A stretch of DNA of 64,000 nucleotides, taken from contig OZ244914.1 in assembly GCA_965221795.1 (NCBI GenBank), positions 303,180 through 367,179 of the forward strand, in the 5' to 3' direction. Shown one piece after another: positions 25,661-64,000 of the stretch. This DNA is from Candidatus Poriferihabitaceae bacterium. Lineage in GTDB: Bacteria > Pseudomonadota > Gammaproteobacteria > Arenicellales > Poriferihabitantaceae. Below the pieces are notes generated by a model, which worked only from the letters and a program-made list of their open reading frames with translations, was not told the origin of the DNA and searched no databases. The translations under genes and the position numbers were made by a program. Each line of letters opens with the position of its first letter. Position 1 is the stretch's first letter.

Positions 25661-27447
25661 TCAGCGCGGCGGGAGCAGCGGGTGGAGGATGGCGTCGCCG
25701 GCGGCTTGGGGTTCGCGGGCGTAGTCGCGGTTCGCGGGCGGGAGGTATGGGAACTGGCCTGGGTGCCGGAAGATGGCGATCGCCAGGTGGGTGATCGCGG
25801 AGAGGTTGCGGGGCGTGTGCCCGGTCCGGACCCGACACCGATCCTCATCGTCGGTGAAGTCCTGGGCGGAATGCTGCCGGTTTTCCATGCTCCCGTGGTT
25901 GCGGACCAGGGCATTGAGGTCCCCGGCATCGGCCCGCTCCGCCGCCAGCGAAGTCAAGCCGTCGGCGCATTCCGCGGTGCGCTCCCCGATCCGGGTGTTG
26001 GTGCGCAGGTGCTGGATCCGGAAGGCCTGCCGACAGCCGGGAGACGGCAGCATCCGTCCCACTGCGGGCCGCTGACGTCGACCACGGTACCGTGCCGGGA
26101 CACTCGATCCGCCCATGCCCCTGGTCCAAGGTCTGGTGGACGTTTGCCGACGCTTCCCAGTCGATCGTCCGGAGGTCCTCCCGCAGGGTTTCCTGATGAT
26201 CCTGGACCGCGGTCATCCCATAGTCCGCCCCGCATGGCCCAGTCAGCAGCCGGGCCGTTTCGGTCTGGGTATGCAGGGTATGCAGGGGGACGATCCGGCC
26301 CCGCAGGTCGAGTTCCCCGAGCAGGGTCCGCACGGCCGTGATCTCGTGGGTGCCGTTCGCAACTCCCGTCTGCCCCGGGGCGATGCCGGTGCCATGCTCG
26401 AAGGTCGAGACCAGGATGAACCGGCGTTCTGCATTCTGCCGCGCGGCACCGCGGATGGTCTTGTCGTCCCGCGCCACCGGGGCCTGCTGGCCCTGTTCCC
26501 GCTGCCACCCGCGTTCTCGGTCGAGTCAGGCGGCATCGCCGACCGGAAGTAACGGAATGTCGACTCGGTGGGCACGGTATAGCGTCTCTTGCTCGGACGG
26601 CAGAAGCAGCCAATGGCCCGGCGCTGCTCCTGGTTGAGGGCGGCGGCAAACTCCGCGATCGCCGTGACCCCGCGGTCTCCGGCCCGGTGCGCCGCCACAG
26701 CCATCGTCAGGTCGTCCGCGATGGCATACCGCCGGCCGCGCGGCTGGCGGACATCCTCGGCACCGGCCAGATGCTCGTACCGACTCGACCGCCGCCGGAC
26801 ACTCGGTGGTTCCTGCCGGACGGGCGGCCGGCAAGGTGCCGGTCGTGGTCCAGCGCTCAGGATGCGGCCGGCATCCGGGGACCGTTCGTACCCGAAACCC
26901 TCCTTTGGTTGACCATGATATGGCCAGTCGGGCACCCCGCCCCGCACCCTGAAAAACCCCGAGGTGGAGCCCAGGTGCCGCCCGTTCGCGGCCCGGTAGC
27001 AGGTTCCGGAAAGCCGGGCTCCGTCCACGAAGGTCTCGGCCCGCAGCACCGGATCGCCATGCCGGTTCTGCAACTCCTGCGAGAGACGGCGCAGGCTCCG
27101 GCCCCGCACCGCGAGGCCCGGTTCGGCCGCAGCGCGGATGCGAGCACCAGGAGCCGGGCATGGTTGGCGATCCGATACAAGCGCTGCTGCCGCTGCGCAT
27201 CGGTCCAGCCGATCCAGCGGTCCCGGACGCCCACCCGGAACGCCCCCGCCGACCAGCCGATCCGCGCCAGCCACGACTCGCCGCAGACCGCGACATGGCG
27301 CAGGGCGCGATCGTAGAAGCACCGGAACGAGAGATCGTGCTGCGCCGCCATCAGCCGGTCCCAGCGCCGTTGCTCGTGCGTGTCGCGAACCGGCCGTACC
27401 CGAACCTCACTCAGATTCCAGTGATCCTCTTTCATGGCCGCGATCAT
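25661..27447 (-). mobile_element. high-GC DUF4338-ISAs1-family transposase gene, frameshifted (degraded IS)
   Basis: Three overlapping minus-strand ORFs in different frames together span one protein. ORF 26857..27447 has the DUF4338-type N-terminus (RDRWIGWTDAQRQQRLYRIANHARLLVL). ORF 26243..27322 has ETFVDGARLSGTCYRAANG plus a DDE_Tnp_1_assoc-like IAEFAAAL segment. ORFs 25845..26477 and 25661..26116 carry the ISAs1 DDE core (THEITAVRTLLGELDL...HGRIE and LVRNHGSMENRQHSAQDFTDDEDRCRVRTGHTPRN). GC is visibly much higher than in the flanks. Confidence 0.65.
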
Positions 27448-27612
27448 AACCGGGGGGAATTTGCTTGCTCATACCCGAACGGGAAAAATCGACGAAAAAG
27501 GTGCCCGCCTCCCTCCAGTTCAACCATAACTGCGAAATACGGCTTTTGCGGTGTCCTGGCCCGCGACGCTCCAGGCTTGCAGTTCTGCGATGCCTGACGG
27601 TACAATCGCCGC

Positions 27613-28302
27613 ATGATGGAAGTGCTCCACTTTGACACTCACCGCTTTGTCAAGAACCTGACCGAAAGCGGCTTTACCGAACTTCAGGCCGAAGCCCTGG
27701 CTGAGGCCCAGATCACGTTTCTCAACGAAAACCTGGCCACCAAGGCCAGCATTGACACCCTGCGCCTGGAAACCCAGGCCGATATCGCTCGACTGGAAGC
27801 CAGTGTCGAATCCCTGCGCCTGGAAACCAAGGCCGATATTGCTCGAGTGGAAGCCAGTGTCGAATCCCTGCGCCTGGAAACCAAGGCCGATATTGCTCGA
27901 GTGGAGGCCAGTGTCGAATCCCTGCGCCTGGAAACCAAGGCCGATATCGTTCGACTTGAGGGCGGCATTGAAACCCTGAGCCAGGAAACCAAGGCCGATA
28001 TCGCTCGAGTGGAAGCCAGTGTCGAATCCCTGCGCCAGGAAACCCAGGCCGATATCGCTCGAGTGGAGGCCAGTGTCGAATCCCTGCGCCAGGAAACCAA
28101 GGCCGATATCGCTCGAGTGGAGGCCAGTGTCGAATCCCTGCGCCAAGAAACCAAGGCCAGCATTGACACCCTGCGTCAGGAAACCCAGGCCAGTATTCTG
28201 TCGGCCAAGTACAGCCTCATGAAATGGATGACCGGAACGATGTTCGCCATGACCGGGCTGTTTGCCGCGATCGTCAAGCTGCTCCCTGGCATCGCTTCGT
28301 GA
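27613..28302 (+). CDS. DUF1640-like coiled-coil membrane-anchored protein with expanded internal repeats
   Basis: The N-terminus FDTHRFVKNLTESGFTELQAEALAEA is DUF1640-like. It is followed by repeated 18-aa units and a C-terminal TM segment (WMTGTMFAMTGLFAAIV). Confidence 0.6.
   Translation: MMEVLHFDTHRFVKNLTESGFTELQAEALAEAQITFLNENLATKASIDTLRLETQADIARLEASVESLRLETKADIARVEASVESLRLETKADIARVEASVESLRLETKADIVRLEGGIETLSQETKADIARVEASVESLRQETQADIARVEASVESLRQETKADIARVEASVESLRQETKASIDTLRQETQASILSAKYSLMKWMTGTMFAMTGLFAAIVKLLPGIAS
27751..28191 (+). repeat. tandem repeat, 54-bp period, about 8 copies, in frame within the DUF1640-like gene
   Basis: The unit gaaaccaaggccgatattgctcgagtggaagccagtgtcgaatccctgcgcctg (ETKADIARVEASVESLRL) recurs head-to-tail with few substitutions. 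Confidence 0.9.
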
Positions 28303-29025: not shown

Positions 29026-32000
29026 GCTGCGGATTGCGGCCGTTTCTCGATTTGCTACACTCCCAAGTAAATTGACCGAACAACCCGCCTTGCTGCGGAT
29101 TGCGGCCGTTTCTCGATTTGCTACACTAGCACGATTACCGGCCTGCAATTGAGCTTGGCTGCGGATTGCGGCCGTTTCTCGATTTGCTACACTGCCGGAT
29201 CGATCGCACAGATTGATCATGGCGCTGCGGATTGCGGCCGTTTCTCGATTTGCTACACTTATGATACTCACCTAAATCGTCGCTAGGACGCTGCGGATTG
29301 CGGCCGTTTCTCGATTTGCTACACTCTGCGGGCAACGATAACCAGCGAAAGACGGGCTGCGGATTGCGGCCGTTTCTCGATTTGCTACACTCTTTGCCCG
29401 TGCCGATGCCGCCTTGATCCAGCTGCGGATTGCGGCCGTTTCTCGATTTGCTACACTGCGCTTGCGCAGGATACTCTTCGGAGCGGCGCTGCGGATTGCG
29501 GCCGTTTCTCGATTTGCTACACTTCCGAGCGATGCGCCAATTGAGACGCAAATGCTGCGGATTGCGGCCGTTTCTCGATTTGCTACACTTTGCCGCTTAG
29601 ACTGCCGGTACGCAATATCGCTGCGGATTGCGGCCGTTTCTCGATTTGCTACACTGTGGATACGTATTCGTTCTACGTCCCCATGGCTGCGGATTGCGGC
29701 CGTTTCTCGATTTGCTACACTGATACGCTGCATGATGTCATGTTCGCGACCGCTGCGGATTGCGGCCGTTTCTCGATTTGCTACACTTTTCTGCACCAGT
29801 TTGATCCTCGGAGCAGAGCTGCGGATTGCGGCCGTTTCTCGATTTGCTACACTCTCTCGCCAAGAGTCGCTACAATGGTCCACGCTGCGGATTGCGGCCG
29901 TTTCTCGATTTGCTACACTCGACCTCTGAAAGTTGACGCCTAGAAGTCGGCTGCGGATTGCGGCCGTTTCTCGATTTGCTACACTGCACAGAACTAGGTG
30001 GAATTGTGTCGACGAGCTGCGGATTGCGGCCGTTTCTCGATTTGCTACACTCTTCGGTTACATCACCTGATAACCCTCCTCGCTGCGGATTGCGGCCGTT
30101 TCTCGATTTGCTACACTCCCATTGATTGCGCTAGTCAGTTCAGAGGCGCTGCGGATTGCGGCCGTTTCTCGATTTGCTACACTGCGATCTAGGATGTCCT
30201 TAGTTATATACTTGCTGCGGATTGCGGCCGTTTCTCGATTTGCTACACTCGGTTTTACCGCGAATATGGCCGCTATCCCGCTGCGGATTGCGGCCGTTTC
30301 TCGATTTGCTACACTCGGTTTTACCGCGAATATGGCCGCTATCCCGCTGCGGATTGCGGCCGTTTCTCGATTTGCTACACTAAACTGGACAAAAAGCAAC
30401 CTCCGAAATCCGCTGCGGATTGCGGCCGTTTCTCGATTTGCTACACTCACGAACTGGAGACTGCGATTCGGGAGTCCGCTGCGGATTGCGGCCGTTTCTC
30501 GATTTGCTACACTTCTGGTTCTAACGAGGTCGATCAGGTCCCCGCTGCGGATTGCGGCCGTTTCTCGATTTGCTACACTTTCTTGCACCTCGATATATTT
30601 TGCTTCGCCGCTGCGGATTGCGGCCGTTTCTCGATTTGCTACACTAGATAATGACCTTATTACTTCACAGCTCAAGCTGCGGATTGCGGCCGTTTCTCGA
30701 TTTGCTACACTCGGCTTGCTCACGATTGGATAAAGACTCGTGCTGCGGATTGCGGCCGTTTCTCGATTTGCTACACTATGGGCTGCCGCTGTTGAGTACA
30801 TCCTGAAGCTGCGGATTGCGGCCGTTTCTCGATTTGCTACACTAATGTGCATGCCTCCACCGTACATGTGGATGCTGCGGATTGCGGCCGTTTCTCGATT
30901 TGCTACACTTCAGGCAAAAGCGAATCTCCAGCAGCGCATGCTGCGGATTGCGGCCGTTTCTCGATTTGCTACACTCTTACTGCGATTGAGTTGAGTTCGA
31001 GGAATGCTGCGGATTGCGGCCGTTTCTCGATTTGCTACACTCAACTCGGACAGGGTCAGATGGTCCTGACTGCTGCGGATTGCGGCCGTTTCTCGATTTG
31101 CTACACTAGTTCTGTGGCGCCAACCGAAAGGGAGATAGCTGCGGATTGCGGCCGTTTCTCGATTTGCTACACTTCTCGTCGGACACGACATGAGGAGGGT
31201 AACGCTGCGGATTGCGGCCGTTTCTCGATTTGCTACACTTTAGGCAGCACGACGCCAATCAAAGCAGACGCTGCGGATTGCGGCCGTTTCTCGATTTGCT
31301 ACACTGTCCGTACCAGTGTAGTCAATTCCTTCTTCGCTGCGGATTGCGGCCGTTTCTCGATTTGCTACACTTGAGGATTCTCATGTTATCGCTGTTCAAT
31401 AGCTGCGGATTGCGGCCGTTTCTCGATTTGCTACACTGAATACTAGAATACATCGCATCATAGTCGGGCTGCGGATTGCGGCCGTTTCTCGATTTGCTAC
31501 ACTACTACACCTTGAGGCTTGACCCTCGCGTCGGCTGCGGATTGCGGCCGTTTCTCGATTTGCTACACTTATCAACTGGTCTCCCTCACCACTCTTTCCG
31601 CTGCGGATTGCGGCCGTTTCTCGATTTGCTACACTGTGTGACGTGCGGAGATAAAGCCGACTGCAGCTGCGGATTGCGGCCGTTTCTCGATTTGCTACAC
31701 TAGCTCGGGCGGTGGGCATCGAGGGGCGACCGCTGCGGATTGCGGCCGTTTCTCGATTTGCTACACTATGAGTGTAAAGCTCGACAATTTCAGACATGCT
31801 GCGGATTGCGGCCGTTTCTCGATTTGCTACACTGTTAAGTAGCTCCGTCAAAGCGCCTTCGGCGCTGCGGATTGCGGCCGTTTCTCGATTTGCTACACTA
31901 TATGAGTATATATATATATATGAGTCCGAGCTGCGGATTGCGGCCGTTTCTCGATTTGCTACACTTTGCAGAACAGGAAGGTCTGCGGTTGGACTGCTGC

Positions 32001-32624
32001 GGATTGCGGCCGTTTCTCGATTTGCTACACTCTCGCGAAGCATGGGGATCCAACGTTCGAAGCTGCGGATTGCGGCCGTTTCTCGATTTGCTACACTTTT
32101 CGCCTCCTGTAGCGTCTTTATATCCTCGCTGCGGATTGCGGCCGTTTCTCGATTTGCTACACTGTGCTCCAGATTTGCCATGCTCCAAGACAGGCTGCGG
32201 ATTGCGGCCGTTTCTCGATTTGCTACACTCCCCCCTTAACGGAGCCCCGGACTCCCCGGGCTGCGGATTGCGGCCGTTTCTCGATTTGCTACACTAATGG
32301 GTTGACCGCGAAAGTCGACGTTGAAGCTGCGGATTGCGGCCGTTTCTCGATTTGCTACACTTTCCATCTGCTGCTTTCTTTCGATTGTCCTGCTGCGGAT
32401 TGCGGCCGTTTCTCGATTTGCTACACTGGACAAGGCGCAAGGACTTATTAGTGTCCAGCTGCGGATTGCGGCCGTTTCTCGATTTGCTACACTCTCCTGC
32501 ACTTCAATGTATTTCGCCTCTCCGCTGCGGATTGCGGCCGTTTCTCGATTTGCTACACTTTAAGTAGCTCCGTGAGAGCACCTTCCGCGCTGCGGATTGC
32601 GGCCGTTTCTCGATTTGCTACACT
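29026..32624 (+). CRISPR. CRISPR array, part 1: 55 copies of 36-bp repeat GCTGCGGATTGCGGCCGTTTCTCGATTTGCTACACT with 30-nt spacers (one of 29 nt)
   Basis: The period is 66 bp from 29026, and all inspected repeats are identical. The last repeat is 32589-32624. The + strand is the predicted crRNA sense (see the tracrRNA and promoter findings). Confidence 0.97.
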
Positions 32625-32671
32625 AAATAACAAAAGGGAATTATATCGAATAGTAACATTGGCCCTTTGAT

Positions 32672-32839
32672 CTAGGGCTTTTTGGACTTCTGAAAAAAGG
32701 CCCGTTGCAGCGTAGCCAGGTCCGCTCCGGGCATCTCATATTCCCGTTCCAGTTCCGCTTTGCTGGGCTGGTAGTGGACGTCAAAGGGATCAGGTGTGGG
32801 TCGGGTCTTTCTGTGTGATGTATTGGACCTTGTTTTCAT
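32672..32839 (-). CDS. small hypothetical protein (about 55 aa) inside the IS
   Basis: ORF 32672..32896. The internal ATG (MKTRSNTSH) is preceded by GAGGA. No family recognised. Confidence 0.25.
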   Translation of the reverse strand: MKTRSNTSHRKTRPTPDPFDVHYQPSKAELEREYEMPGADLATLQRAFFQKSKKP

Positions 32840-33024
32840 AGCAGATCCTCGGAAAGTCGGGGAATTATCTGTAATAATAACCCAACCACACAACAATACA
32901 GCACATTCATGACAGGTACAACGAAATCTGCTAGTCTGAAGAGAGGCAGACCGCAGACCGCAATTTAAGTGTCGGCCCGAACTGGGCTAACCAGACCATC
33001 TGGACAGGGGACAATCTCCCCATC

Positions 33025-34203
33025 ATGCGGGGGATGAATTCGGAGTCTGTGGACCTGATCTATCTGGATCCCCCGTTCAACTCCAAAGCCGATTATGCGG
33101 CTCCGATCGGCAGCCGGGCTGCCGGTGCCGAATTCAAGGATACCTGGACCTTGCAGGACGTGGATATCGCCTGGCTGGACCTGATCGAAAACAAACACCC
33201 GAAATGATGGCGGGTCATACAGGCTGCCATGACCAACAGCGATAAGTCCTATTTGATTTACATGGCAGTACGGTTGTTGGAAATGCAGCGGCTGCTGAAA
33301 CCAACAGGAAGCATTTATCTTCATTGTGATCCGACGATGAGCCACTATTTGAAACTGGTTATGGATGCCATCTTTGGACGGGAAAATTTCAAGAATGATA
33401 TTATTTGGAATCGCTCAGGAGGATTCAAACGGAAAACGGCTCGCCTTTTTCCCACCAAAAACGACAATATTCTCTTTTATGCACTGGACAGTAAAATCCA
33501 TACATTTTCTACCCAATACAGACCTCACAGGCCGGAATACATAAAGCGGTTTAAGGCCGACGCTTCTGGAAGGCTGTTTCGTTCTGATGTCAATCCAACT
33601 GGCGGCGGTCGCCGTACCATTTATCTGGATGAAACTTTAGGAGATATTGTCGACTCTGTTTGGATAGATATTCCTCCTGCAAATCCGGCGGCAAAAGAAC
33701 GTGTGGGTTATCCAACACAGAAACCGATTGCTTTGTTGCGACGCATCCTGAAAGCTTCCTGTCCCGAAAACGGGGTTGTGCTGGATCCTTTTTGTGGATG
33801 TGCTACCACGTGCGTTGCAGCGGAAGAATTAAGCAGGCAATGGGTGGGAATTGATATCAGTTCCAAAGCCTATGATCTGGTCAAGGATCGAATGGACCGG
33901 GAAATCGGCTTCTCTACCTATACTTGCCCCCATCGCACGGATATTCCCCAGAGAACGGATATCCAGCCATTAAAGCGGTATAACCACCCGGACAACCGGA
34001 AATACCTGTACGGCGAACAGGGAGGGATCTGTAACGGCTGCCGGGAACATTTTCTGATCCAGAATTTTACGGTAGATCACATCATTTCTCGCAAGCAAGG
34101 AGGGACCGATCATCTGGACAATCTGCAATTGCTCTGTGCCCGATGCAACTCGGTCAAGGGAGACCGAGGGCAGGAGTATCTTATAACAAGACTGGCTGCG
34201 TGA
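33025..34203 (+). pseudogene. beta-class N6A/N4C DNA methyltransferase fused to a C-terminal HNH nuclease domain, interrupted by an in-frame TGA
   Basis: Motif IV DLIYLDPPFNS lies upstream of motif I (VLDPFCGCATT). The HNH motif is CNGC...DHIISRKQGGTDHLDNLQLLCARCNSVKG. ORFs 33025..33207 and 33229..34203 are in the same frame and are separated by TGA at 33205-33207. Homology (ANQTIWTGDNLPIM) extends upstream of 33025 without a canonical start. Confidence 0.75.
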
Positions 34204-34211
34204 CCTGTCGA

Positions 34212-35156
34212 CTACGCCTGGATCAAATCCACATAACGCAACCGCTTCCCCTCCATTCGCCTGACCATCCAGTCCATCTGGTCCATGGTGTCCAGTTCGC
34301 GGTCATTGAACCGCCCGGAAAATTCATGGACATAACGGTTCAAGTGCTTCTCGCTCATATGGTGGTAAGTGCCATGGTAGCCCCGCTTCAGTAACGCCCA
34401 AAACGACTCAATGCCGTTGGTGTGGGCTTGGTCGTTCACCCACTCACTAACCGAATGTTTCACCGTTTCATGGGGATTCGGGAGCCCTTGGTAGCCCTTC
34501 CATTCGTCGCTGTAAATCGTGGTCGTGTATTCGGTGACCTCGCCCAGGAATTCGTGCAGGCAGGTTCTGCTGGCCGAAGGAATGACCTTGGCTTGGATGG
34601 TGTTGGTTTCCCGATCCTTGGCTCCGACCACCGTCGCTTTCCCCACGGCTCCCCGACCCGCATGTAGTTTCTTGTGGGCATGCTTGTTGATCTCCTTGCC
34701 GCCGATGTAAGTCTCATCTACTTCTACCGGCCCCGGGAACTGACCCGTTTCGGATTGGAAAACATCCCGGAGCCGATGCAGCATAAACCAGGCCGCTTTC
34801 TGTCCAATGCCCAATTCCCGGTGCAGTTTCATCGAACTGATGCCTTTCAGGTTCGTAGTGAACAGGTAAATGCCCACGGCCCAATGACGATACTTGATCT
34901 TGGAGCCTTCCATCACCGAGCCTTTCTTTACGCTGAACATCGGCTTGCCCTTACACTCCCGGCAACGATGGGTCATGGTGGGATGCGTAATATCACTTTG
35001 CACATTGTGGGTTCCACAATGAGGGCAGACCGGACCATCCGGCCACCGCCATTCCTCAATCCATTTGCGGGCGCTTTCCTCGGTGCCAAACATTTCCGCA
35101 ATTTCCAGAAGCGTTAATCCTTTCCTTTTGTACTTACCGGGTGCTGACTGGGCCAT
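34212..35156 (-). CDS. IS1595-family (ISXO2-like) DDE transposase
   Basis: 314 aa with an N-terminal zinc ribbon (CPHCG...CRECK) and a DDE_Tnp_IS1595-type core (VEVDETYIGGK...IYSDEWKGY...HTNGIESFWALLKRG). Confidence 0.9.
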   Translation of the reverse strand: MAQSAPGKYKRKGLTLLEIAEMFGTEESARKWIEEWRWPDGPVCPHCGTHNVQSDITHPTMTHRCRECKGKPMFSVKKGSVMEGSKIKYRHWAVGIYLFTTNLKGISSMKLHRELGIGQKAAWFMLHRLRDVFQSETGQFPGPVEVDETYIGGKEINKHAHKKLHAGRGAVGKATVVGAKDRETNTIQAKVIPSASRTCLHEFLGEVTEYTTTIYSDEWKGYQGLPNPHETVKHSVSEWVNDQAHTNGIESFWALLKRGYHGTYHHMSEKHLNRYVHEFSGRFNDRELDTMDQMDWMVRRMEGKRLRYVDLIQA

Positions 35157-35269
35157 GATTCTGTCTCGGTTACGATTTACTGAATAGTAACATTATGGTC
35201 AATTTGTGTCAACTGAAAATGTTACTTTTCGATATAATTCCCTAACAAAAAAATAATCGTATTGGGCGG

Positions 35270-36955
35270 GCTGCGGATTGCGGCCGTTTCTCGATTTGCT
35301 ACACTGACACGGAGAACTGTGTCACGCCAGTATTTGCTGCGGATTGCGGCCGTTTCTCGATTTGCTACACTTCCAGCGGGTGCGATGGCGCCAGCCAAAG
35401 GGCTGCGGATTGCGGCCGTTTCTCGATTTGCTACACTTCCATCAAGGATATCGAGAGCATCCATACGCTGCGGATTGCGGCCGTTTCTCGATTTGCTACA
35501 CTACGCTTACGAAGGATGCTCCGCGAAGCGGCGCTGCGGATTGCGGCCGTTTCTCGATTTGCTACACTCCCAAACAGTATCTGCCTTCTCAAGCCGAAGC
35601 TGCGGATTGCGGCCGTTTCTCGATTTGCTACACTACGCTTACGAAGGATGCTCCGCGAAGCGGCGCTGCGGATTGCGGCCGTTTCTCGATTTGCTACACT
35701 AGCTTGGCCCTTATTAGCCAGTGCCTGTAAGCTGCGGATTGCGGCCGTTTCTCGATTTGCTACACTTCCATACTAAGCGACTCCTAAAGAAGATAAGCTG
35801 CGGATTGCGGCCGTTTCTCGATTTGCTACACTGAGAAGGGCCATCCATGGCGGCCATCTCGCGGCTGCGGATTGCGGCCGTTTCTCGATTTGCTACACTG
35901 AAGTAAAATCTCGACAAATCATGAATTTGGCTGCGGATTGCGGCCGTTTCTCGATTTGCTACACTACCGCCGCCTAAGTACTCACGATTGGCAGAGCTGC
36001 GGATTGCGGCCGTTTCTCGATTTGCTACACTTTTTGAGGTGATTAGCCCGAACACCGTAAAGCTGCGGATTGCGGCCGTTTCTCGATTTGCTACACTAGT
36101 AATATGTGGACGGATTGTCTCGCCCGGGCTGCGGATTGCGGCCGTTTCTCGATTTGCTACACTCGCAAGCGTTTGTTTAAGTCTCGCGCAGACGCTGCGG
36201 ATTGCGGCCGTTTCTCGATTTGCTACACTCTCACGAAGCATGGGAATCCATCTCTCGAAGCTGCGGATTGCGGCCGTTTCTCGATTTGCTACACTAGCAG
36301 CCAAGGCGCCTTGCGTTTGCATAGAGCTGCGGATTGCGGCCGTTTCTCGATTTGCTACACTCACCTCGTGTTGCTCCTGCTGCTGTTTCATGCTGCGGAT
36401 TGCGGCCGTTTCTCGATTTGCTACACTACCAAAGAGTGTCCTGTGTCAAGAGAGACCGCTGCGGATTGCGGCCGTTTCTCGATTTGCTACACTCTCACGC
36501 AACATCGGAATCCAGCGCTCGAAGCTGCGGATTGCGGCCGTTTCTCGATTTGCTACACTCCGTCCTTAGTCGTGGCTAGACTCGCTCAGGCTGCGGATTG
36601 CGGCCGTTTCTCGATTTGCTACACTACAGGTTAGTCAACAAAACGCTCGTTCTGCGCTGCGGATTGCGGCCGTTTCTCGATTTGCTACACTCCATCAGGC
36701 GACTCCAAGTGAGGATAAAGGGCTGCGGATTGCGGCCGTTTCTCGATTTGCTACACTTTGCTCTGTAACGTGGGGTGAAAGCGCAGAGCTGCGGATTGCG
36801 GCCGTTTCTCGATTTGCTACACTTACCACCAAGGGCAGTGCCGATGCCGAGAAGCTGCGGATTGCGGCCGTTTCTCGATTTGCTACACTGGAATTCTGAC
36901 TGATCGCCCACGCCTCATCGCTGCGGATTGCGGCCGTTTCTCGATTTGCTACACT
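35270..36955 (+). CRISPR. CRISPR array, part 2: 26 copies of the same 36-bp repeat with 30-nt spacers
   Basis: The 66-bp period is exact from 35270 to the last repeat at 36920-36955. The repeat is identical to that of part 1. Confidence 0.97.
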
Positions 36956-37005
36956 TGCCCATGATGTAGGGCATTGAAAAAAAGCCGATTTTGCCCGCCC
37001 ACTGG

Positions 37006-37341
37006 TCAAAAAAGTTCCAGTTGGGCGGGCGGGTTCGGCAATGTCTGTCGTTTTTTTCCGACATGGATCTCTATCCGACCGAACTGTTTGTCGGTGATTG
37101 TCAGGAATCGGACTTCCCCTGCGAAAGGTACCCGGTGACCCATCCTTGCAGTGTGAACCTTGGCGTTTTCAATAGATGCGCAGTGCCGTATGTAAACGGA
37201 ATACTGCATCATCGTAAAACCGTCTTTTATTAGCTCTTTCCGAAATCTGGCATAGGCCTTACGGGCTGTTGGCGTGTCTGTGGGAAGGTCGAACATTGCA
37301 ATTACCCACATCGAACGCCAACCCCATGGGATTGCTTTCAC
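37006..37341 (-). CDS. cas2: CRISPR-associated endoribonuclease Cas2
   Basis: 111 aa with a Cas2-type translation (IAMFDLPTDTPTARKAYARFRKELIKDGFTMMQYSVYIRHC). It lies directly downstream of cas1. Confidence 0.9.
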   Translation of the reverse strand: MKAIPWGWRSMWVIAMFDLPTDTPTARKAYARFRKELIKDGFTMMQYSVYIRHCASIENAKVHTARMGHRVPFAGEVRFLTITDKQFGRIEIHVGKKRQTLPNPPAQLELF

Positions 37342-37367
37342 CCTTTCTGCCTTCGTCAGAGGATATA

Positions 37368-38303
37368 TCAGCCTGCGTCTGTGATATCAGACTGCCCGGG
37401 TTCCACCGGCAGACCCTCGGGTAAGGAAAGCTTCTGTTCTCCGCCAGTCAGAACTTGGCAAAGGGAAACCGCACTGGTATGCAAGGCTAGCAGCAATGGT
37501 TCCTTACGGCCTCCAACAAGAATGGTTTCGTTGAGTAATGCGAGGAGTTCAGCGCGATTTTTCCGTATCGATAGATCGGGTACTGGCTCGCCTTCATCCT
37601 CTGTCAACTGCCGGACACGCCAGTCAACGTATGGCCGATACGGCTCCAACAGATCGTCCGCCAGACAGAAAGGGTTGCTCCGGTGGCGGTGATGTACACC
37701 CAGAGATGGGATCAGTCCCACTGCGACCACGGCCCGGGCGATTGCAGCACGAACAACAGCATAGCCGTAATTCAGTAGTGCATTCACGCCTCCAGCACTC
37801 CGGTCCCGACGGAAATCCTTGCCGAACAGGCGAGGCCAGTATCTCTGTGCAGCCTGTGCCTCAAGATTTTCCGGATCGCCAGAACGTACTCGGCGAGCCA
37901 TGGCGGTGAGGCCTCCATGACTATCGGTGAAATGCGACAGTACGGCAGCCTGCTGCCTGATCTTGGCTTGTACGATCTCCTGCCATGCACGTTTTGAGGT
38001 CGGCTTACTGGCACCGACCTGCGCACGATGCCGTTCCGTCTGAATATGATGCGCATCAAGAGGCAACATCATTCCGACGGGTAAATGGTCGTGGCCGGTG
38101 ACCAGCACGGTTGCACCGGCCTCCAAAAGCGAAAGAAAGACAGACTGCGTGTAGGTCGCCTGGATGTCGTCGACAATCACTACACCCAAGTCTTCGATCG
38201 GGAGCGTCGCCTTTGGCAGGTCGAGCCGCTCGATCACAAGCTGTGAATTCGCAACGGAAAGGCGAGTTCCGGGAGTTGAGAATTCCACGGTCTTGCGGAT
38301 CAT
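37368..38303 (-). CDS. cas1: CRISPR-associated endonuclease Cas1 (type II)
   Basis: 311 aa with a Cas1-type translation (NALLNYGYAVVRAAIARAVVAVGLIPSLGVHHRHRSNPFCLADDLLEPYRP). Confidence 0.92.
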   Translation of the reverse strand: MIRKTVEFSTPGTRLSVANSQLVIERLDLPKATLPIEDLGVVIVDDIQATYTQSVFLSLLEAGATVLVTGHDHLPVGMMLPLDAHHIQTERHRAQVGASKPTSKRAWQEIVQAKIRQQAAVLSHFTDSHGGLTAMARRVRSGDPENLEAQAAQRYWPRLFGKDFRRDRSAGGVNALLNYGYAVVRAAIARAVVAVGLIPSLGVHHRHRSNPFCLADDLLEPYRPYVDWRVRQLTEDEGEPVPDLSIRKNRAELLALLNETILVGGRKEPLLLALHTSAVSLCQVLTGGEQKLSLPEGLPVEPGQSDITDAG

Positions 38304-38315
38304 GATGGTATGGTT

Positions 38316-41300
38316 TCAGTCGTTTGCCGGACGGACCCGGCCAGCTGGGTCGACGGAAACCTTCCTTCCGCCGCCTTTGACGATTGCAGTTGCTTTAGGA
38401 CGAAACTCGGAAGTTCCGGTCGCATCATCATGATCAACCATAACAACTTGGCCCGATGTCCAGACACCTTTGACAATTCGAATTTTCTCTTCACCATTCT
38501 TGGCAAATTGCAACGAATCACCGGGAGATAACGACATGACAAATTTCGCACCATCTCCACGGTCACGGCAAACTACCGGTTGCCGTCGTCCAATACGTCG
38601 GGAGGCTTCCAGCAAGCTCACCACCTCATAATCGACGGTGTTATCCGGCAAACTATAGATGGCGATATGGTGGTTGTTGCCCAAGTCGGCATGACCCGTA
38701 GAAACGGATGCCATCAGATCCATTTGCCGTTTAATACGCAGGCGAACCTTCCGGATTTCCGGACCCTTTCGACCTCGCTTCGGATAGGGTGGGAAAGCCT
38801 TCTTCGGCTCTCCACCGTGCTGGTCAACCCAGCCTTTGATGATATCCCGTACCTTTTGGTCGGGCCACAGGTCCCTGTTCTTTTCCTGCAGGGTGTCCTT
38901 GCTCAGCTCCTCGACATTCTTGCGTGTTACGAAATATCGGTAAGTTGGCCGGCCCTTGGAAGCATCGTCCTCACCTGTATTGCCGTAAACTGTCTCTTTA
39001 TGCAGGGGGCCGGAAACCTTTTTTCGTACGCGATGGGATACAACAATGGTCATGACTTCCTTTTCGGCATCGCGTCGAATCGTCCCCCACGGTAGTTCAA
39101 GGCGTGGGGCTATGGAGTGGAAGTTATCCTCGTCCTGCCAGTAGCGTGAGAGTTGCTGGGTCATCCTAGGGTGACAGCACGCGACCGTCAGGGCATCAAT
39201 TGCGTGGTGCCGGTGGTCAGCACGGTTTTTTTCACCATTATCAGCCAGTATGTTGCTGAGTCCCCATAACCGGCGGAGATGTGCGGTGACCCGTCCCGAA
39301 ACAGCATGAACCTTGACAGAGGACTCTGGACCAACGTCTGGCCAAAGTTTCTTCAGATAGGTAACAGCCTCACGGGCCGCATAGCCTGTGTCGTTCAACT
39401 GTCGAGCGGCAAAATCTTCCGGAATGGACATCGCCAGGAATCTCCTGATCTTGCCATGGGACATACCAATCCCCCCACTTTTCGGTGCCTTCATTCCATA
39501 GAGTCTGGTAACCAGAGCCTCCCATCCTGCGGAATCGTCGCGAAAGAATTCATATGGAATCCGATTGCTCTTTTGGAGGTTCACATCCTTGCGGCATAGA
39601 GTCTTGTTCTTGAAACTATCATCAAGGGAGCGCGAGCGCGGCCAGATATGCTCCACTTCGAATTTTCCGGATTTGAACAAATCATCAAATGAAATGGAAT
39701 CTCCTGTGTACGGACAGAAATATCGACTCTCTTCCCACAGCATCCACTTCTCAACATCTGCCCGAGAAGGCGTAGGAATACCTTTTTCCTGAAGCTTCTC
39801 GCGTGCTGCCTTCCGGCGACGTTCCTGCCGCTTGATTCCAGCTGCCCTTTCCTCACGTTGACGTTTCGAATTACCCACATCACGCGCCATCTCGACGCGA
39901 ATCAGGTCTGGCTTTCCGAACATGTCGATCAGATTGTTAACTACCTTCCGCAGTTCATTGCGAGTGCGTGCTACCGTAGGGTTCCGCAGCTTCTTGACAT
40001 GCTCACACTCTTCCCGGTCTGCGGGACTGGGAAGGCGATCAAACACCTCGCCGGTAGGTTGCTCACGACCCGGGAAAGTGTCGGTTCGCCATGGTTCCCA
40101 GGCGGGACCGTTGATGATTTCACCAAATCGGACGCCAGCTTCAAGATGCGGCAGCATCGCCTGCAGCGCATCAATGGAATAGGGCTCCCACCCGGGTGAG
40201 AATTTCAGGATCTCGATTGCAGATGCCTGATCATCGGATAGATCAAATTCCGCGGCCAAACGGCGTACGGTTTCCGACCTGCGGGACTGACGCTCGGATG
40301 CAGGGAGAATAGTCACGCGCTGGCCGCCGACTTCATCGTAGTCCGCCTGCCTGATCCTGTCCGGCAGTGCATCCCTGATTTCCTGTTTGCATGGATGATC
40401 TTGCCAAGCATCCCCGAAGATTCCCGCCAGCTTTGATTCAATAGCATTGCCGAGCAGATTTCTCTCGCCGCCCTCTTCCAGATTGAATTTCAGTGCTCTC
40501 TCCTCACCAGCTTGACCACGCGCCCTGTATAGAGGTGCAAGCGCTCTCTGAACGCCTTTCCACGTCATTGATGCTTGGGTTTGAAGTCTTGCAAGTATGG
40601 CCGCTCTCTCTTCTTCATCCAGATGCCGCTGGTTTCTGCCGGTGATCGAGAGATTGTTGAGCTTTTCCAGCATACGCCTTTGCTGTGACAGCCAGGACCC
40701 CTTCGGGCAGAGACGCGCATCGGGGACAAATGGACATGTGCCAAGGGTGTTCAATCGCCAGAAAACGGGGCGCTGGAAGAAGATCGCATCCCGGATGGAA
40801 GAGCAGAATGATTCCGGCAGAAGCGGTGACCAAACGGAATCGAATTCATGCGCGACGATGTAACGTGTGGCATGTTCGCCTCTCTTGCGTTCATGCGAAC
40901 CACGCCCGGCCAGCCAGGCACCAAGGGTCTTTTCTTCACGCTTGATTTCCTTGATTGTTTTTTCGCGTGCAGAAGAGGCCTTCTTATCGTCATCACCGTC
41001 ATCAGAGGACTCGGCTCCATCCACAATCTCGTCGAGATCACGACCCTTGAAATGTCGACGCTGTGCTAGATGGTAGATGGCCCGGCCAATTTCATGCGGA
41101 GACAGGGGATACCCCTCAAATCCTCGCCTCCGCAGATCATAGGGATCCCACTTCATCACTTCGTTCCATTCCGTGGACCCTCGTTGCGGAAGGAATCCGG
41201 CCTGGAACAGTTGTTCACCGAGAATACGGCGACGCTCCCGGCGGCGGCGCAATTGACGTCGCCGCAGGCGTGCCTGCCGTCGTTCCTGATTTAATGGAAC

Positions 41301-41438
41301 ACCCCTAGGGTCCCGGGCTTCGGGAAAAATGCGGACACCAAGGCGATGGATTTTTCCTGTAGCTCTCTTCGGGTCGTGTTCTATTACGGCAAATCCGATT
41401 GATGTCGTTCCGATATCGAATCCGAAAGTCAGTGGCAT
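38316..41438 (-). CDS. cas9: type II-C Cas9 (about 1,040 aa)
   Basis: It has RuvC-I FGFDIGTTSIGFAV, an Arg-rich bridge helix RQARLRRRQLRRRRERRRIL, RuvC-II IRVEMARD, HNH FEVEHIWPRS...NKTLC...NLQKSNRIPYEF and RuvC-III DHRHHAIDAL. No csn2 or cas4 is present, hence II-C. The start is set at MPLTFGF (41438). The ORF-track extension to 41534 covers the predicted tracrRNA anti-repeat and is rejected. Confidence 0.93.
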   Translation of the reverse strand: MPLTFGFDIGTTSIGFAVIEHDPKRATGKIHRLGVRIFPEARDPRGVPLNQERRQARLRRRQLRRRRERRRILGEQLFQAGFLPQRGSTEWNEVMKWDPYDLRRRGFEGYPLSPHEIGRAIYHLAQRRHFKGRDLDEIVDGAESSDDGDDDKKASSAREKTIKEIKREEKTLGAWLAGRGSHERKRGEHATRYIVAHEFDSVWSPLLPESFCSSIRDAIFFQRPVFWRLNTLGTCPFVPDARLCPKGSWLSQQRRMLEKLNNLSITGRNQRHLDEEERAAILARLQTQASMTWKGVQRALAPLYRARGQAGEERALKFNLEEGGERNLLGNAIESKLAGIFGDAWQDHPCKQEIRDALPDRIRQADYDEVGGQRVTILPASERQSRRSETVRRLAAEFDLSDDQASAIEILKFSPGWEPYSIDALQAMLPHLEAGVRFGEIINGPAWEPWRTDTFPGREQPTGEVFDRLPSPADREECEHVKKLRNPTVARTRNELRKVVNNLIDMFGKPDLIRVEMARDVGNSKRQREERAAGIKRQERRRKAAREKLQEKGIPTPSRADVEKWMLWEESRYFCPYTGDSISFDDLFKSGKFEVEHIWPRSRSLDDSFKNKTLCRKDVNLQKSNRIPYEFFRDDSAGWEALVTRLYGMKAPKSGGIGMSHGKIRRFLAMSIPEDFAARQLNDTGYAAREAVTYLKKLWPDVGPESSVKVHAVSGRVTAHLRRLWGLSNILADNGEKNRADHRHHAIDALTVACCHPRMTQQLSRYWQDEDNFHSIAPRLELPWGTIRRDAEKEVMTIVVSHRVRKKVSGPLHKETVYGNTGEDDASKGRPTYRYFVTRKNVEELSKDTLQEKNRDLWPDQKVRDIIKGWVDQHGGEPKKAFPPYPKRGRKGPEIRKVRLRIKRQMDLMASVSTGHADLGNNHHIAIYSLPDNTVDYEVVSLLEASRRIGRRQPVVCRDRGDGAKFVMSLSPGDSLQFAKNGEEKIRIVKGVWTSGQVVMVDHDDATGTSEFRPKATAIVKGGGRKVSVDPAGRVRPAND

Positions 41439-41458
41439 GCGTGATCTTCTGTTTCTTG

Positions 41459-41486
41459 TTGCTTTATACGAATCATATGCTAATAT
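41459..41486 (+). promoter_or_regulatory. sigma70-type promoter for the predicted tracrRNA
   Basis: The promoter is TTGCTT (41459-41464), a 16-nt spacer and TAATAT (41481-41486), with an extended -10 TG at 41478-41479 (TGCTAATAT). Confidence 0.5.
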
Positions 41487-41493
41487 CGTTTCC

Positions 41494-41620
41494 ATAGCAA
41501 ATCGAGAAGCGGTCGATTTCCTTTTCGCAAGCAAATTGACCCTTTGTGCGGGCTCGGTGTCCCAAGGTCATCCACCGGTTTTCTAAAGCCGCCGTTTCCA
41601 TTCGGAGGCTTTATTGCTTG
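41494..41620 (+). ncRNA. predicted tracrRNA (divergent from cas9)
   Basis: The anti-repeat at 41495-41532 (TAGCAAATCGAGAAGCGGTCGATTTCCTTTTCGCAAGC) is complementary to the +-strand repeat: 21 consecutive pairs including 2 G:U, then a bulged continuation to repeat position 1. Downstream lie hairpins CGGTG-13 nt-CACCG followed by GTTTTCT, and AAAGCCGCCG-8 nt-CGGAGGCTTT followed by ATT. The ends are approximate. Confidence 0.6.
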
Positions 41621-41799
41621 TGTGCTGGAAATCAGTTTGCAAGCTGAATGGTTACTGATTGGCAAGCGGTGTGTACACCACAGGACTTCGGCTGGCGTCT
41701 GGTGTAAGAATGCCAGAGTGACCGCGCATCGGTTTCCGGGGCCGGATTACCCAGCGATGGCTTCGGACGCAGTCTTGAGATAGCCGGGGGCAGGCCGGA

Positions 41800-42285
41800 T
41801 TACCCTGCCATTTTCCTGTGGCCGGTCCGGCGTCCCCGGCACCGAGGATAGTTCACGCACCCAAGAAACGGGCCGTACTTGCCTGTCCGCTCGACCAGCC
41901 AGCCGTCGGGGCATGCCGGGCAGGACCGAAAGGTCGCCCCGCAGGCGCATTTGCTGGTGTCCGACACGGCTTCGTTTCGGAGCGGCAGTCCGGCACCGCA
42001 GGCCGCGCACACGGGCAGGCTCGCGCCGCAATGATGCCTATGCTCGCAGGCATACCGGAATCTGCCGTCCGGCACCAGATGCCCTTCACATCTTGGACAG
42101 CGATACCGGCGACGCCTGTTCTGCCCCGTTTTCATCATGTCTGTCATTTCCGCTACCTCATACTCCCCGTCCTCCAGCAGTTCGTTCACGAAGTCCGACG
42201 GCTGATCCGGCCTGGCGATGATCGTGACCGACCTGCGCACCCGGATGTTCGACCCTGGAAGAAGGCGTAACAAGACGACATTCAC
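41800..42285 (-). pseudogene. 3' remnant of a helicase-type gene with Cys-rich zinc ribbons and a topoisomerase-type C4 zinc finger
   Basis: The N-terminus VRRSVTIIARPDQPSDFVNELL resembles the extreme C-terminus of UvrD-like helicase cores. It is followed by CPRC/CxxC clusters and GKYGPFLGCVNYPRC (zf-C4_Topoisom-like). No helicase body lies upstream. Confidence 0.4.
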
Positions 42286-63085: not shown

Positions 63086-63116
63086 TGTCACGTCACACAT
63101 GATATGTCGCATATAG

Positions 63117-64000
63117 TATGATAAATTCCCCGTCTGGTGGCAAGACGAGGGTCAACACAGGAAGCGCTATGCGGTGACGTTGGACGAATCGGAACGGAAC
63201 GAACTGACGGCGATCACGAGCCAAGGCTCGCATCGATCCCAGCAGGTGATCAACGCCCGGATCCTGCTCAACTGCGATGAGGGGGATGGCAATGACCGGC
63301 AGTTCACCGGGGAAGCCATCGCCGACATCCTGCGCATCAGCCTGCGCAAGGTGGACCGGGTGAAGAAGCGGTTCGTGGCGGAAGGTCTGGAGGCGGCGCT
63401 GGGCGGCCGCCCGGGGCGCCGGCCCACGTCTATCCGCAAGGCCGACGGCGAATTCGAGGCGCGCCTGGTGGCCCTGGCTTGCGGCGAGCCGCCGGCGGGT
63501 CACGGGCCATGGTCGTGGCGGCTGCTGGCCGACCGGGTGGTGGCACTCGGCTACCTCGACGCGGGATCCCATGAGACGGTGCGGCGGGTTCTCAAAAAAC
63601 GAACTCAAGCCCTGGCGGCGGGTCGGTGGGGTGATTCCGCCCCAAGGGAACGCCGAGTTGGTCGCCGCGATGGAGAAGGTACTGGATGGATACCGGCGCC
63701 CCGACGATGCCGCTTTCCCGGTGGTGTGCAGGGACGAGACCCGGCGCCAGTGGATCCACCAGACCCGGGCGCCGGTTCCCATGGGCCCGGGACGGCCGGC
63801 CGGCCACGACGACGAGTACCGGCGCGGTGGAACCGGCAATGTCTTCATGGCCACCGAACCCCTGGCCGGCCGGCGGATGACCCAGGTGACCGCACGCAGG
63901 ACCCGGACCGACTGGGCGCAGTTCCTGGCCGACCTCGCCGCACGCTACCGGGACGCCACTCGCCTCCCCCGGGTGATGGACCATCTCAACCCCCACCGGC
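63117..64000 (+). mobile_element. second, distinct IS630-family transposase gene, frameshifted and running off the window
   Basis: My manual translation gives RKRYAVTLDESERNELTAI...RRVLKK, then in the +1 frame NELKPWRR...VVCRDETR...GNVFMATEPLAGRR. The break is at the A6 run 63594-63599. No canonical start codon lies at the expected N-terminus, and the gene directly abuts the first IS630. Confidence 0.65.

What the first reader, a model, noticed from the sequence alone, without database searches (positions are those of the whole stretch)
29458..36523. Spacer families that differ only at synonymous codon positions of the same peptide
Three spacers (32032-32061, 36230-36259, 36494-36523) differ from each other at 5-6 of 30 nt, yet all translate on the minus strand to FERWIPMLRE. 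Two spacers (30580-30609, 32494-32523) differ at 8 nt, all at positions 1 mod 3, and both encode GEAKYIEVQE. Spacer 31834-31863 and the 29-nt spacer 32560-32588 both encode AEGALTELL. A fourth family (29458-29487 versus 35504-35533 and 35636-35665) encodes AAPKSILRKR and AASRSILRKR. The plus-strand frames of these families are not conserved. The array therefore sampled the same protospacer positions in conserved protein-coding genes of several diverged variants of an invader. That is a sequence record of an arms race with escape variants, and of strong PAM or site preference. In all four families the predicted crRNA (+ sense) is antisense to the coding strand. Four cases are too few to call a bias, but it is worth noting because some II-C Cas9s can act on RNA.
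Basis: seen in the sequence. Interest (0 to 1): 0.65.

Follow-up and report, generated by a model that had tools for sequence, protein, structure and literature searches.

The report
CRISPR spacers re-sampled from diverged gene variants
One long type II-C CRISPR array holds four small groups of spacers copied from the same spot of a protein-coding gene in deeply diverged relatives of an unidentified invader, a clear but unsurprising record of repeated immunisation.

Summary
Families A, B and C (22-25 of 30 nt identical) differ only by changes that are synonymous on the minus strand. Family D has two amino-acid changes and is not significant on its own. The best unrelated spacer pair shares 18 of 27 nt.

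The two arrays are one array of 81 identical repeats, split by an IS1595-family insertion inside a spacer. It belongs to a cas9-cas1-cas2 (type II-C, Neisseria-like) locus.

The best explanation is independent, PAM-anchored acquisition of the same protospacer from homologous genes. The donors' synonymous sites are saturated (pS about 0.8, pN about 0.05). They are therefore old relatives, not fresh CRISPR-escape mutants. The mismatches lie at every third base, not in the seed.

The antisense orientation of all four families is not significant (two-sided p = 0.125). The other 69 spacers split about evenly, and a related array has a family in the opposite sense.

No target turned up in phage, plasmid, IMG/VR, JGI metagenome or GTDB collections. 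So the PAM, the invader's identity and any site preference remain untested. Terminase is only a weak lead.

This is ordinary CRISPR biology, nicely recorded.

The parts
29026..32624 (+). CRISPR array, cas-distal segment: 55 identical 36-nt repeats (GCTGCGGATTGCGGCCGTTTCTCGATTTGCTACACT) and 54 spacers
32636..35242 (.). IS1595-family element inserted inside spacer 55. It has 24-nt inverted ends (23 of 24 matching) and an 8-bp target duplication, TAACAAAA (32628-32635 and 35243-35250). It carries a transposase (34212-35156, -) and a DNA methylase-HNH passenger gene (33229-34203, +). Joining the flanks 32625-32635 and 35251-35269 rebuilds a 30-nt spacer.
35270..36955 (+). CRISPR array, cas2-proximal segment: 26 identical repeats and 25 spacers
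32032..32061 (+). Family A member 1. The reverse complement reads FERWIPMLRE.
36230..36259 (+). Family A member 2, FERWIPMLRE. It differs from member 1 at 5 nt.
36494..36523 (+). Family A member 3, FERWIPMLRE. It differs from members 1 and 2 at 7 and 5 nt.
30580..30609 (+). Family B member 1, GEAKYIEVQE on the minus strand
32494..32523 (+). Family B member 2, GEAKYIEVQE. All 8 differences are at wobble positions.
31834..31863 (+). Family C member 1, AEGALTELLN on the minus strand
32560..32588 (+). Family C member 2 (29 nt), AEGALTELL. It is in register with member 1 at the 3' (repeat/PAM-proximal) end and differs at 4 nt.
29458..29487 (+). Family D member 1, AAPKSILRKR on the minus strand
35503..35532 (+). 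Family D member 2, AASRSILRKR. The coordinates are corrected by -1 from the finding.
35635..35664 (+). Family D member 3, identical to 35503-35532 and separated from it by one unrelated spacer
30250..30345 (+). Two adjacent identical spacers (30250-30279 and 30316-30345)
36956..37005 (.). Stretch between the last repeat and the cas2 stop codon, conserved in relatives. It is the candidate leader, and part of it is the terminator hairpin of the cas operon.
   Evidence: read
37006..37311 (-). cas2
37368..38303 (-). cas1 (NMENI/type II subtype)
38316..41438 (-). cas9, 1040 aa counted from MPLTFGFDIG, with RuvC and HNH domains. The closest solved relatives are Neisseria-type II-C Cas9s.
41495..41619 (+). 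tracrRNA: anti-repeat TAGCAAATCGAGAAGCGGTCGATTTCC, internal hairpins, then a terminator hairpin and a T-rich tail. It is divergent from cas9.

Best explanation
The four families are independent spacer acquisitions by one type II-C CRISPR-Cas9 system. Each was taken from the same PAM-anchored 30-nt site of a conserved protein-coding gene, carried by deeply diverged relatives of a mobile element. The element is probably a tailed phage, but it is not identified.

Cas9 together with Cas1-Cas2 measures the spacer from the PAM. Homologous sites therefore give spacers in exact register at the repeat-proximal end.

The donors differ at most wobble positions, including in the seed, so no family member can guide cleavage of another member's target. 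Each variant needs its own spacer, and all of them are kept.

We see such families only in conserved coding sequence because only there do homologous spacers stay recognisable. We also see them only where the PAM itself survives synonymous divergence. That may explain why all four share one codon phase.

Shown: the families, their synonymous pattern, the locus type, the crRNA sense and the single-array structure.

Inferred: the PAM anchoring, the phage origin, retention by selection, and the codon-phase argument.
For: - Families stand clear of chance: 22-25 of 30 matches against 18 of 27 at most.
- All members are in register at the 3' end, including the 29-nt spacer.
- Changes are synonymous on the minus strand, with two-step Arg and Leu codon switches.
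- Random-substitution nulls give 1.5e-4 to 1.4e-2 per pair for A, B and C.
- Pooled pS is about 0.8 and pN about 0.05.
- Flanking spacers are unrelated and all 81 repeats are identical.
- No further families appear at peptide level.
- The locus is cas9-cas1-cas2 with a conserved + strand tracrRNA.
- In Neisseria type II-C, Cas9 selects PAM-flanked prespacers and crRNAs start from promoters inside the repeats (PMC12477760).
- Repeated acquisition of one protospacer through biased sampling is an accepted scenario (PMC4524480).
- Related arrays of the same Cas9 clade also hold same-register duplicates and near-duplicates.
- One of their spacers matches a roseophage terminase gene at 28 of 30 nt.
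Against: - No protospacer was found for any of the 79 spacers or for the degenerate family patterns. The donor, the PAM and the coding status rest on the spacers alone.
- Family D is not significant by the synonymous test.
- For B and C, the + frame that shares the wobble positions is almost as well conserved.
- A site 'hotspot' is not required. If most spacers came from one phage family of about 35 kb and the PAM had 4 informative bases (about 300 sites), uniform sampling of 79 spacers would give several same-site pairs. This is my own estimate.
- The absence of partly overlapping spacers argues only weakly against that.
Confidence: 0.8

Rival explanations
1. The donors are not variants of one invader. 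They are one conserved gene carried by otherwise unrelated elements (terminase, relaxase or transposase, for example), or paralogues within one element. The acquisition mechanism is the same, but the ecological reading differs.
For: - Synonymous sites are saturated, so the donor genomes need share little beyond conserved genes.
- The only database leads point to terminase large subunit, the most widely conserved phage gene.
- Splitting every family with one cut of the array, as two infection 'epochs' would, is not significant (P = 0.17-0.40).
Against: - Nothing direct. The families show similar divergence (14-27%), which fits one pair of genomes just as well.
- Two members of different families (32494 and 32560) are adjacent in the array.
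Confidence: 0.25
2. Duplication or recombination of repeat-spacer units inside the array, followed by point mutation, produced the similar spacers.
For: - Exact duplicates exist here: 30250/30316 are adjacent, and 35503/35635 are one unit apart.
- A two-unit block duplication exists in a related array, L018. Unit duplication therefore does happen in these arrays.
Against: - Mutation in an array has no reason to respect a reading frame, and the observed pattern is very unlikely under random substitution.
- 4-8 changes per spacer contrast with zero changes in 81 repeats.
- No flanking spacers are shared.
Confidence: 0.03
3. Guided re-acquisition. Cas9 carrying an outdated crRNA binds the diverged protospacer without cutting and passes exactly that site to Cas1-Cas2, updating the spacer. 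A variant of this idea is that the system favours guides complementary to mRNA because the Cas9 also acts on RNA.
For: - This array has four diverged families in 79 spacers. Related arrays have about four in 515.
- All four families are antisense to the inferred coding strand.
Against: - Mismatches occur at positions 3, 6 and 9 from the PAM end, inside the seed that Cas9 needs for binding (established knowledge of Cas9).
- Known type II priming yields spacers near the cut site, not at it (from memory).
- The strand split of the other spacers is 35:34 here and 269:246 in relatives.
- The L016 family is in the opposite sense.
Confidence: 0.05

Closest known systems
Neisseria meningitidis type II-C CRISPR-Cas9 (cas9-cas1-cas2, tracrRNA, repeats that carry their own promoters)
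   Same: - Same gene set and order.
- 36-nt repeats and 30-nt spacers.
- The repeat ends in TGCTACACT, like the Neisseria extended -10 (that comparison is from memory; PMC12477760 states that the promoters are embedded in the repeats).
- crRNA is transcribed towards the cas genes.
- Cas1 matches the NMENI model, and Neisseria-type Cas9s are the best solved matches.
   Different: - The Cas9 is only distantly related to the solved ones (E about 1e-54 over the HNH/RuvC core).
- The tracrRNA lies upstream of cas9 and divergent from it.
- The array is much longer (80 spacers).
- The PAM is unknown.
Repeated independent acquisition of one protospacer through biased sampling (Kupczok et al. 2015, PMC4524480; acquisition-bias studies in Streptococcus type II-A, from memory)
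   Same: The same PAM-flanked site enters an array more than once. Here it enters as exact duplicates and as diverged versions.
   Different: The copies here come from donors whose synonymous sites are saturated, so they record different lineages rather than repeated hits on one genome.
Spacer and protospacer variation among related phages, with synonymous and non-synonymous differences (C. difficile, PMC4173771; community studies of acid-mine and hot-spring arrays, from memory)
   Same: Related viruses differ within protospacers, often silently, and arrays track those variants.
   Different: Those studies compare spacers with sequenced viruses. Here the variation is seen only among spacers of one array, and the viruses are unknown.

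Membership tests
Type II-C CRISPR-Cas | Cas9 with RuvC and HNH nuclease domains | tested here: met
   Pfam RuvC_III, HNH_4 and Cas9_a. TIGR01865 scores 577 bits. Neisseria-type Cas9 structures are the best matches.
Type II-C CRISPR-Cas | cas1 and cas2 present; no csn2 (II-A) or cas4 (II-B) | tested here: met
   Cas1 matches TIGR03639 and Cas2 matches TIGR01573. The only other ORF next to the operon (41800-42285) is a zinc-ribbon protein. The array follows cas2 directly.
Type II-C CRISPR-Cas | tracrRNA with an anti-repeat complementary to the repeat | tested here: met
   There is a 14-nt exact core and about 27 nt of imperfect complementarity at 41495-41521 on the + strand. A terminator follows. 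The element is conserved, with compensatory changes in the terminator stem, in 21 related loci.
Type II-C CRISPR-Cas | crRNAs transcribed from promoters inside each repeat | tested here: inconclusive
   The repeat ends in TTGCTACACT (TACAAT or TACAGT in relatives), which resembles an extended -10. No transcript data are available.
Type II-C CRISPR-Cas | PAM 3' of the protospacer | not testable with these tools
   No protospacer was found for this array.
IS1595-family insertion sequence | DDE_Tnp_IS1595 transposase with an N-terminal zinc ribbon, terminal inverted repeats and an 8-bp target duplication | tested here: met
   Pfam PF12762 and PF12760. The inverted ends and the TAACAAAA duplication were read. 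Four more copies at 99.9% identity occur in the same metagenome.
Primed (guide-dependent) spacer acquisition | New spacers depend on a pre-existing, partly matching spacer | not testable with these tools
   This needs acquisition experiments. The seed mismatches make it unlikely.
Target = phage terminase large subunit | The family peptides map to a TerL family at more than chance level | tested here: inconclusive
   The family D pattern hit one IMG/VR contig, in frame in a TerL (AAFASILRKR). The motif AAxxxILRKR is conserved in 120 homologues. About 0.6 in-frame chance hits were expected (my estimate). Families A, B and C do not map to that TerL or to the roseophage TerL.

The most novel reading that the evidence does not exclude
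Same-site capture from diverged donors may be more than hotspot sampling. An outdated crRNA could direct Cas9 to the diverged protospacer and hand exactly that site to the integrase, updating the spacer. Alternatively, the system could favour guides complementary to mRNA. Either would be a new adaptation rule for type II systems.
Probability: 0.05. Interest if true: 0.75.

Novelty: new member of a known kind. Interest (0 to 1): 0.3.

Why it matters
This is a clean natural example of one array storing several versions of the same protospacer from deeply diverged relatives. It shows three things.
- Immunity is variant-specific.
- Conserved genes are hit repeatedly.
- Spacer sequences alone can reveal the reading frame, the strand and possibly the informative PAM positions of an unknown target.

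It has practical uses. The family peptides and degenerate patterns are ready-made probes for finding the invader in the source metagenome. The codon-phase argument gives a testable prediction about the PAM. It does not change how type II-C systems are understood.

Tried and rejected
Target searches. All came back empty or uninformative.
- blastn of all 79 spacers against INPHARED phages and PLSDB plasmids.
- Fully degenerate back-translated patterns: family A in IMG/VR, GTDB genomes and JGI metagenomes; family B in IMG/VR and JGI; family C in IMG/VR.
- Eight-residue peptide patterns in IMG/VR.
- One further spacer with wobble positions set to N.
- A 40-residue concatenation of the four peptides against the 5.8-billion protein set found 'no candidate sharing three words'. 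I regard this as uninformative. A 10-residue match probably cannot reach three indexed words, and chance alone should otherwise have produced thousands of candidates.
- Self-targets in the window and in all fetched loci: only chance matches of 14-18 nt.
- The window's own Cas1, Cas2 and Cas9 are not on record, so the source contig could not be fetched.

Terminase lead.
- It holds for family D only and is about as likely as not to be chance.
- Fitting families A, B and C into the same TerL by eye was not borne out by scoring.
- hmmsearch on 10-residue targets gave nothing usable.

Other tests.
- Two infection epochs inferred from the order of family members: not significant.
- A general codon-phase or wobble-class bias among ordinary spacers: absent (25:22:21).
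- Strand bias in 515 spacers of related arrays: 269:246, but the classifier was weak.
- Hits of related arrays to a sewage phage and a Pseudomonas phage are probably chance. They passed the threshold only because the alignment ran a few bases into the repeat.
- The organism name could not be obtained.
Full report
**What is there**

Tandem-repeat and exact-match parsing find 81 identical copies of a 36-nt repeat, GCTGCGGATTGCGGCCGTTTCTCGATTTGCTACACT. They lie in two blocks, 29026-32624 and 35270-36955, and hold 79 intact spacers: 75 of 30 nt, three of 29 nt and one of 31 nt.

The 2.6 kb between the blocks is an IS1595-family element. It has 24-nt inverted ends and an 8-bp target duplication, TAACAAAA. 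Joining the sequence on either side of it rebuilds a 30-nt spacer. The two 'arrays' are therefore one array of 80 spacers with an insertion in spacer 55. Four more copies of the element, at 99.9% identity, occur in one public metagenome assembly.

To the right of the array, on the minus strand, lie cas2, cas1 and cas9. There is no csn2 or cas4. The closest solved Cas9s are Neisseria-type II-C enzymes.

**crRNA sense**

Just upstream of cas9 and divergent from it, the + strand carries an anti-repeat (TAGCAAATCGAGAAGCGGTCGATTTCC, from 41495). Hairpins, a terminator stem and a T-rich tail follow. The same element sits at the same place in 21 related loci, with compensatory changes in the terminator stem.

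The repeat ends in TTGCTACACT (TACAAT or TACAGT in relatives). This resembles the promoters embedded in the repeats of Neisseria type II-C arrays (PMC12477760). No transcript data were available to confirm it.

The stretch between the last repeat and cas2 is conserved among relatives, while the cas-distal flank is not. Several relatives also have degenerate repeats at the cas-distal end. I therefore infer that new spacers enter at the cas2-proximal end. This inference is not needed for the main conclusion.

**The observation**

In an all-against-all comparison, unrelated spacers share at most 18 of 27 positions. The reported groups share 22-25 of 30. All are on the same strand and in register at the 3' end, including the 29-nt member of family C.

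On the minus strand, frame 0:
- Family A reads FERWIPMLRE three times.
- Family B reads GEAKYIEVQE twice.
- Family C reads AEGALTELL twice.
- Family D reads AAPKSILRKR and AASRSILRKR.

Small corrections apply. Family A pairs differ at 5, 5 and 7 nt. The two identical family D spacers are one base lower than stated.

**Is the synonymous pattern more than chance?**

I placed the observed number of substitutions at random and asked how often some open frame keeps its peptide unchanged.

| Pair | Probability |
|---|---|
| A pairs | 0.010, 0.0007, 0.005 |
| B | 0.00015 |
| C | 0.014 |

Family A also contains two-step synonymous switches (Arg CGT/AGA, Leu CTT/TTG), and family C has TTG/CTC. These make sense only in the minus-strand frame.

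Family D has two amino-acid changes and is not significant alone (P of 2 or fewer changes = 0.26).

The + frame that starts one base in has its wobble positions at the same nucleotides as the minus-strand frame. In that + frame, B differs by only I/M and C by only K/R. For those two families the strand call rests on that one residue plus codon likelihood, which favours the minus strand by about 4.5 and 5.9 natural-log units summed over members. The strand is firm for A, good for C, moderate for B and weak for D.

**What kind of divergence is it?**

Pooled over families, the proportion of synonymous differences is about 0.8 and of non-synonymous differences about 0.05. Synonymous sites are therefore saturated while the peptides are held constant.

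The mismatches fall at positions 3, 6, 9 and so on from the PAM-proximal end, along the whole spacer. They are not concentrated in the seed.

This is the signature of old, neutral divergence under purifying selection. It is not the signature of mutants selected to escape Cas9. With 4-8 mismatches, including in the seed, no member should cross-protect against another member's target. That statement rests on established knowledge of Cas9 and was not tested here.

**Rival: copying inside the array**

Exact duplicates do occur. Spacers 30250 and 30316 are adjacent, and 35503 and 35635 are one unit apart. A related array, L018, has a two-unit block duplication.

This cannot explain the diverged families, for three reasons:
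- Drift in an array would not respect codons.
- 81 repeats carry no change at all.
- No neighbouring spacers are shared.

**Strand and phase**

Four of four families antisense to the crRNA gives a two-sided p of 0.125, and that is before allowing for the uncertain strand calls.

A codon-usage classifier trained on the window's genes is 65% accurate on host 30-mers. It puts the other 69 spacers at 35 minus to 34 plus. Across 515 spacers from related arrays the split is 269:246, with a weak classifier. A family in L016 is synonymous in the crRNA-sense frame. I see no support for a preference for mRNA-complementary guides.

All four families do share one codon phase (p = 0.037). So do a near-duplicate pair in L019 and the L019 spacer that matches a phage gene. 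Ordinary spacers are spread evenly over the three wobble classes (25:22:21).

My reading, which is an inference, is an ascertainment effect. A site can be re-sampled from donors with saturated wobble positions only if the PAM's informative bases sit on codon positions 1-2. The observed phase places PAM positions 1, 4 and 7 on the wobble. This fits an N4-type PAM read at positions 5-6 and/or 8, as in Neisseria Cas9s (those PAMs are from memory).

**Targets**

None was found. The searches were:
- spacer blastn against phages and plasmids;
- degenerate family patterns in IMG/VR, JGI metagenomes and GTDB genomes;
- peptide patterns in IMG/VR;
- one further spacer in IMG/VR;
- the window and all fetched loci.

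A peptide search of the large protein set returned no candidates, but I judge it unable to find 10-residue matches.

A relaxed pattern for family D hit one IMG/VR contig, in frame in a terminase large subunit (AAFASILRKR). The motif AAxxxILRKR is conserved in 120 homologues. I estimate about 0.6 in-frame chance hits for that pattern, and the site is only 20 of 30 nt identical to the spacer. This is a weak lead. Families A, B and C do not map to that protein or its neighbours.

**Relatives**

Cas9 proteins 60-73% identical occur in metagenome-assembled genomes labelled Alpha- and Gammaproteobacteria, Paracoccaceae, Thalassobaculaceae and Synechococcus. They have near-identical repeats and arrays of up to 131 repeats.

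None of their 515 distinct spacers belongs to families A-D. They contain many exact duplicates, mostly adjacent, and only about four diverged same-register pairs. This array is therefore several-fold richer in such families.

One L019 spacer matches the terminase gene of Dinoroseobacter phage R26L at 28 of 30 nt. It is antisense to the gene and has a codon boundary at the spacer/PAM junction. Host and phage are taxonomically compatible, so I take this hit as probably real. Two other hits look like chance.

A sister strain with 99% identical flanks has lost cas9-cas1-cas2 and all but one repeat-spacer unit.

**How it most likely works**

Cas9 picks PAM-flanked DNA, and Cas1-Cas2 integrates a fragment measured from the PAM (PMC12477760). 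Homologous, PAM-conserving sites in related invaders therefore yield spacers in the same register.

Repeated capture of one site is expected either from biased protospacer sampling (PMC4524480) or simply from many spacers being drawn from one small genome family. By my estimate, about 300 candidate sites and 79 spacers would already give several coincidences. The absence of partly overlapping spacers argues only weakly for true hotspots.

Whether the donors are variants of one element or different elements sharing a conserved gene cannot be decided without targets.

**Novelty and verdict**

The locus is a new member of the Neisseria-like type II-C group. The spacer families are a clear instance of phenomena already described: re-acquisition of the same protospacer, and arrays tracking silent variation among related viruses (PMC4173771, and community studies from memory).

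- The coding and independent-acquisition reading is well supported.
- The 'escape' and strand-bias readings are not supported.

Interest is modest.

Noticed in passing
window 32636-35242, with flanks 32625-32635 and 35243-35269: An IS1595-family element with an 8-bp target duplication splits one 30-nt spacer, so the two arrays are a single array. It carries a DNA methylase-HNH passenger gene whose N-terminal part (the DPPF motif near 33060) lies in another frame, upstream of the called start. A 473-aa version exists on L005.
   Followed up: partly
L001 6604-7530 (ERZ25070844 ctg10123), corresponding to window 29026-42243: A sister strain with 99% identical flanks lacks cas9, cas1, cas2 and the array. 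It keeps one repeat, a different spacer, a truncated repeat and what looks like a transposase remnant.
   Followed up: partly
window 41495-41619 (+): A tracrRNA lies divergent from cas9. It is conserved in 21 related loci, with compensatory changes in the terminator stem. The longest-ORF start of cas9 (41534) would overlap it, so the real start is probably 41438.
   Followed up: yes
window 30058-30867, 31396-32181, 35714-36391 (minus strand): The 66-nt unit is a multiple of three, and the repeat has no stop codon in one minus-strand frame (SVANRETAAIRS). Long false ORFs therefore run through the array, and gene callers could report them as proteins.
   Followed up: no
window 30250-30279 and 30316-30345; 35503-35532 and 35635-35664: There are exact duplicate spacers, one pair adjacent and one pair separated by an unrelated spacer. 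Adjacent duplicates are also common in related arrays (L016 has four such pairs).
   Followed up: partly
L019 spacer CTCTTCGATCACGCCAGGCGCGAGGTTCAC versus PP882867.1 1943-1972 (L031, L034): A spacer of a Paracoccaceae genome matches the terminase large subunit gene of Dinoroseobacter phage vB_DshS_R26L at 28 of 30 nt. It is antisense to the gene, and the 3' flank is GCTGTTGCGTTC.
   Followed up: partly
families A-D in the window, plus the L019 pair (18902/16328) and the L019 phage hit: Six of seven coding same-site cases in this Cas9 clade put the wobble at spacer positions 3, 6, 9 and so on from the PAM end. Ordinary spacers show no such preference (25:22:21). This may be a footprint of which PAM positions matter.
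   Followed up: partly
L006-L029: Nearly the same repeat, tracrRNA and Cas9 (60-73% identity) occur in genomes labelled Alphaproteobacteria, Gammaproteobacteria and Synechococcus. That suggests horizontal spread of this system within one kind of habitat. One isolate carries three cas9 loci, and another carries two.
   Followed up: no
window 36956-37005: The short stretch between the last repeat and the cas2 stop codon is conserved among relatives (motif GTAGGGCATTGAA next to the repeat). It overlaps a hairpin that spans the cas2 stop. It is likely a leader plus the operon terminator.
   Followed up: partly
window 27758-28158: There are 7.4 copies of a 54-nt in-frame tandem repeat inside a coiled-coil (CCDC90-like) ORF at 27613-28302. 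The copies vary between the window and the sister strain.
   Followed up: no
window 31900-31929 and 32230-32259: Two spacers have odd composition: ATATGAGTATATATATATATATGAGTCCGA, with an internal AT run and a repeated ATATGAGT, and CCCCCCTTAACGGAGCCCCGGACTCCCCGG.
   Followed up: no
window 26001-28000 and 62001-64000: Two segments have 66-68% G+C, against about 55% elsewhere.
   Followed up: no
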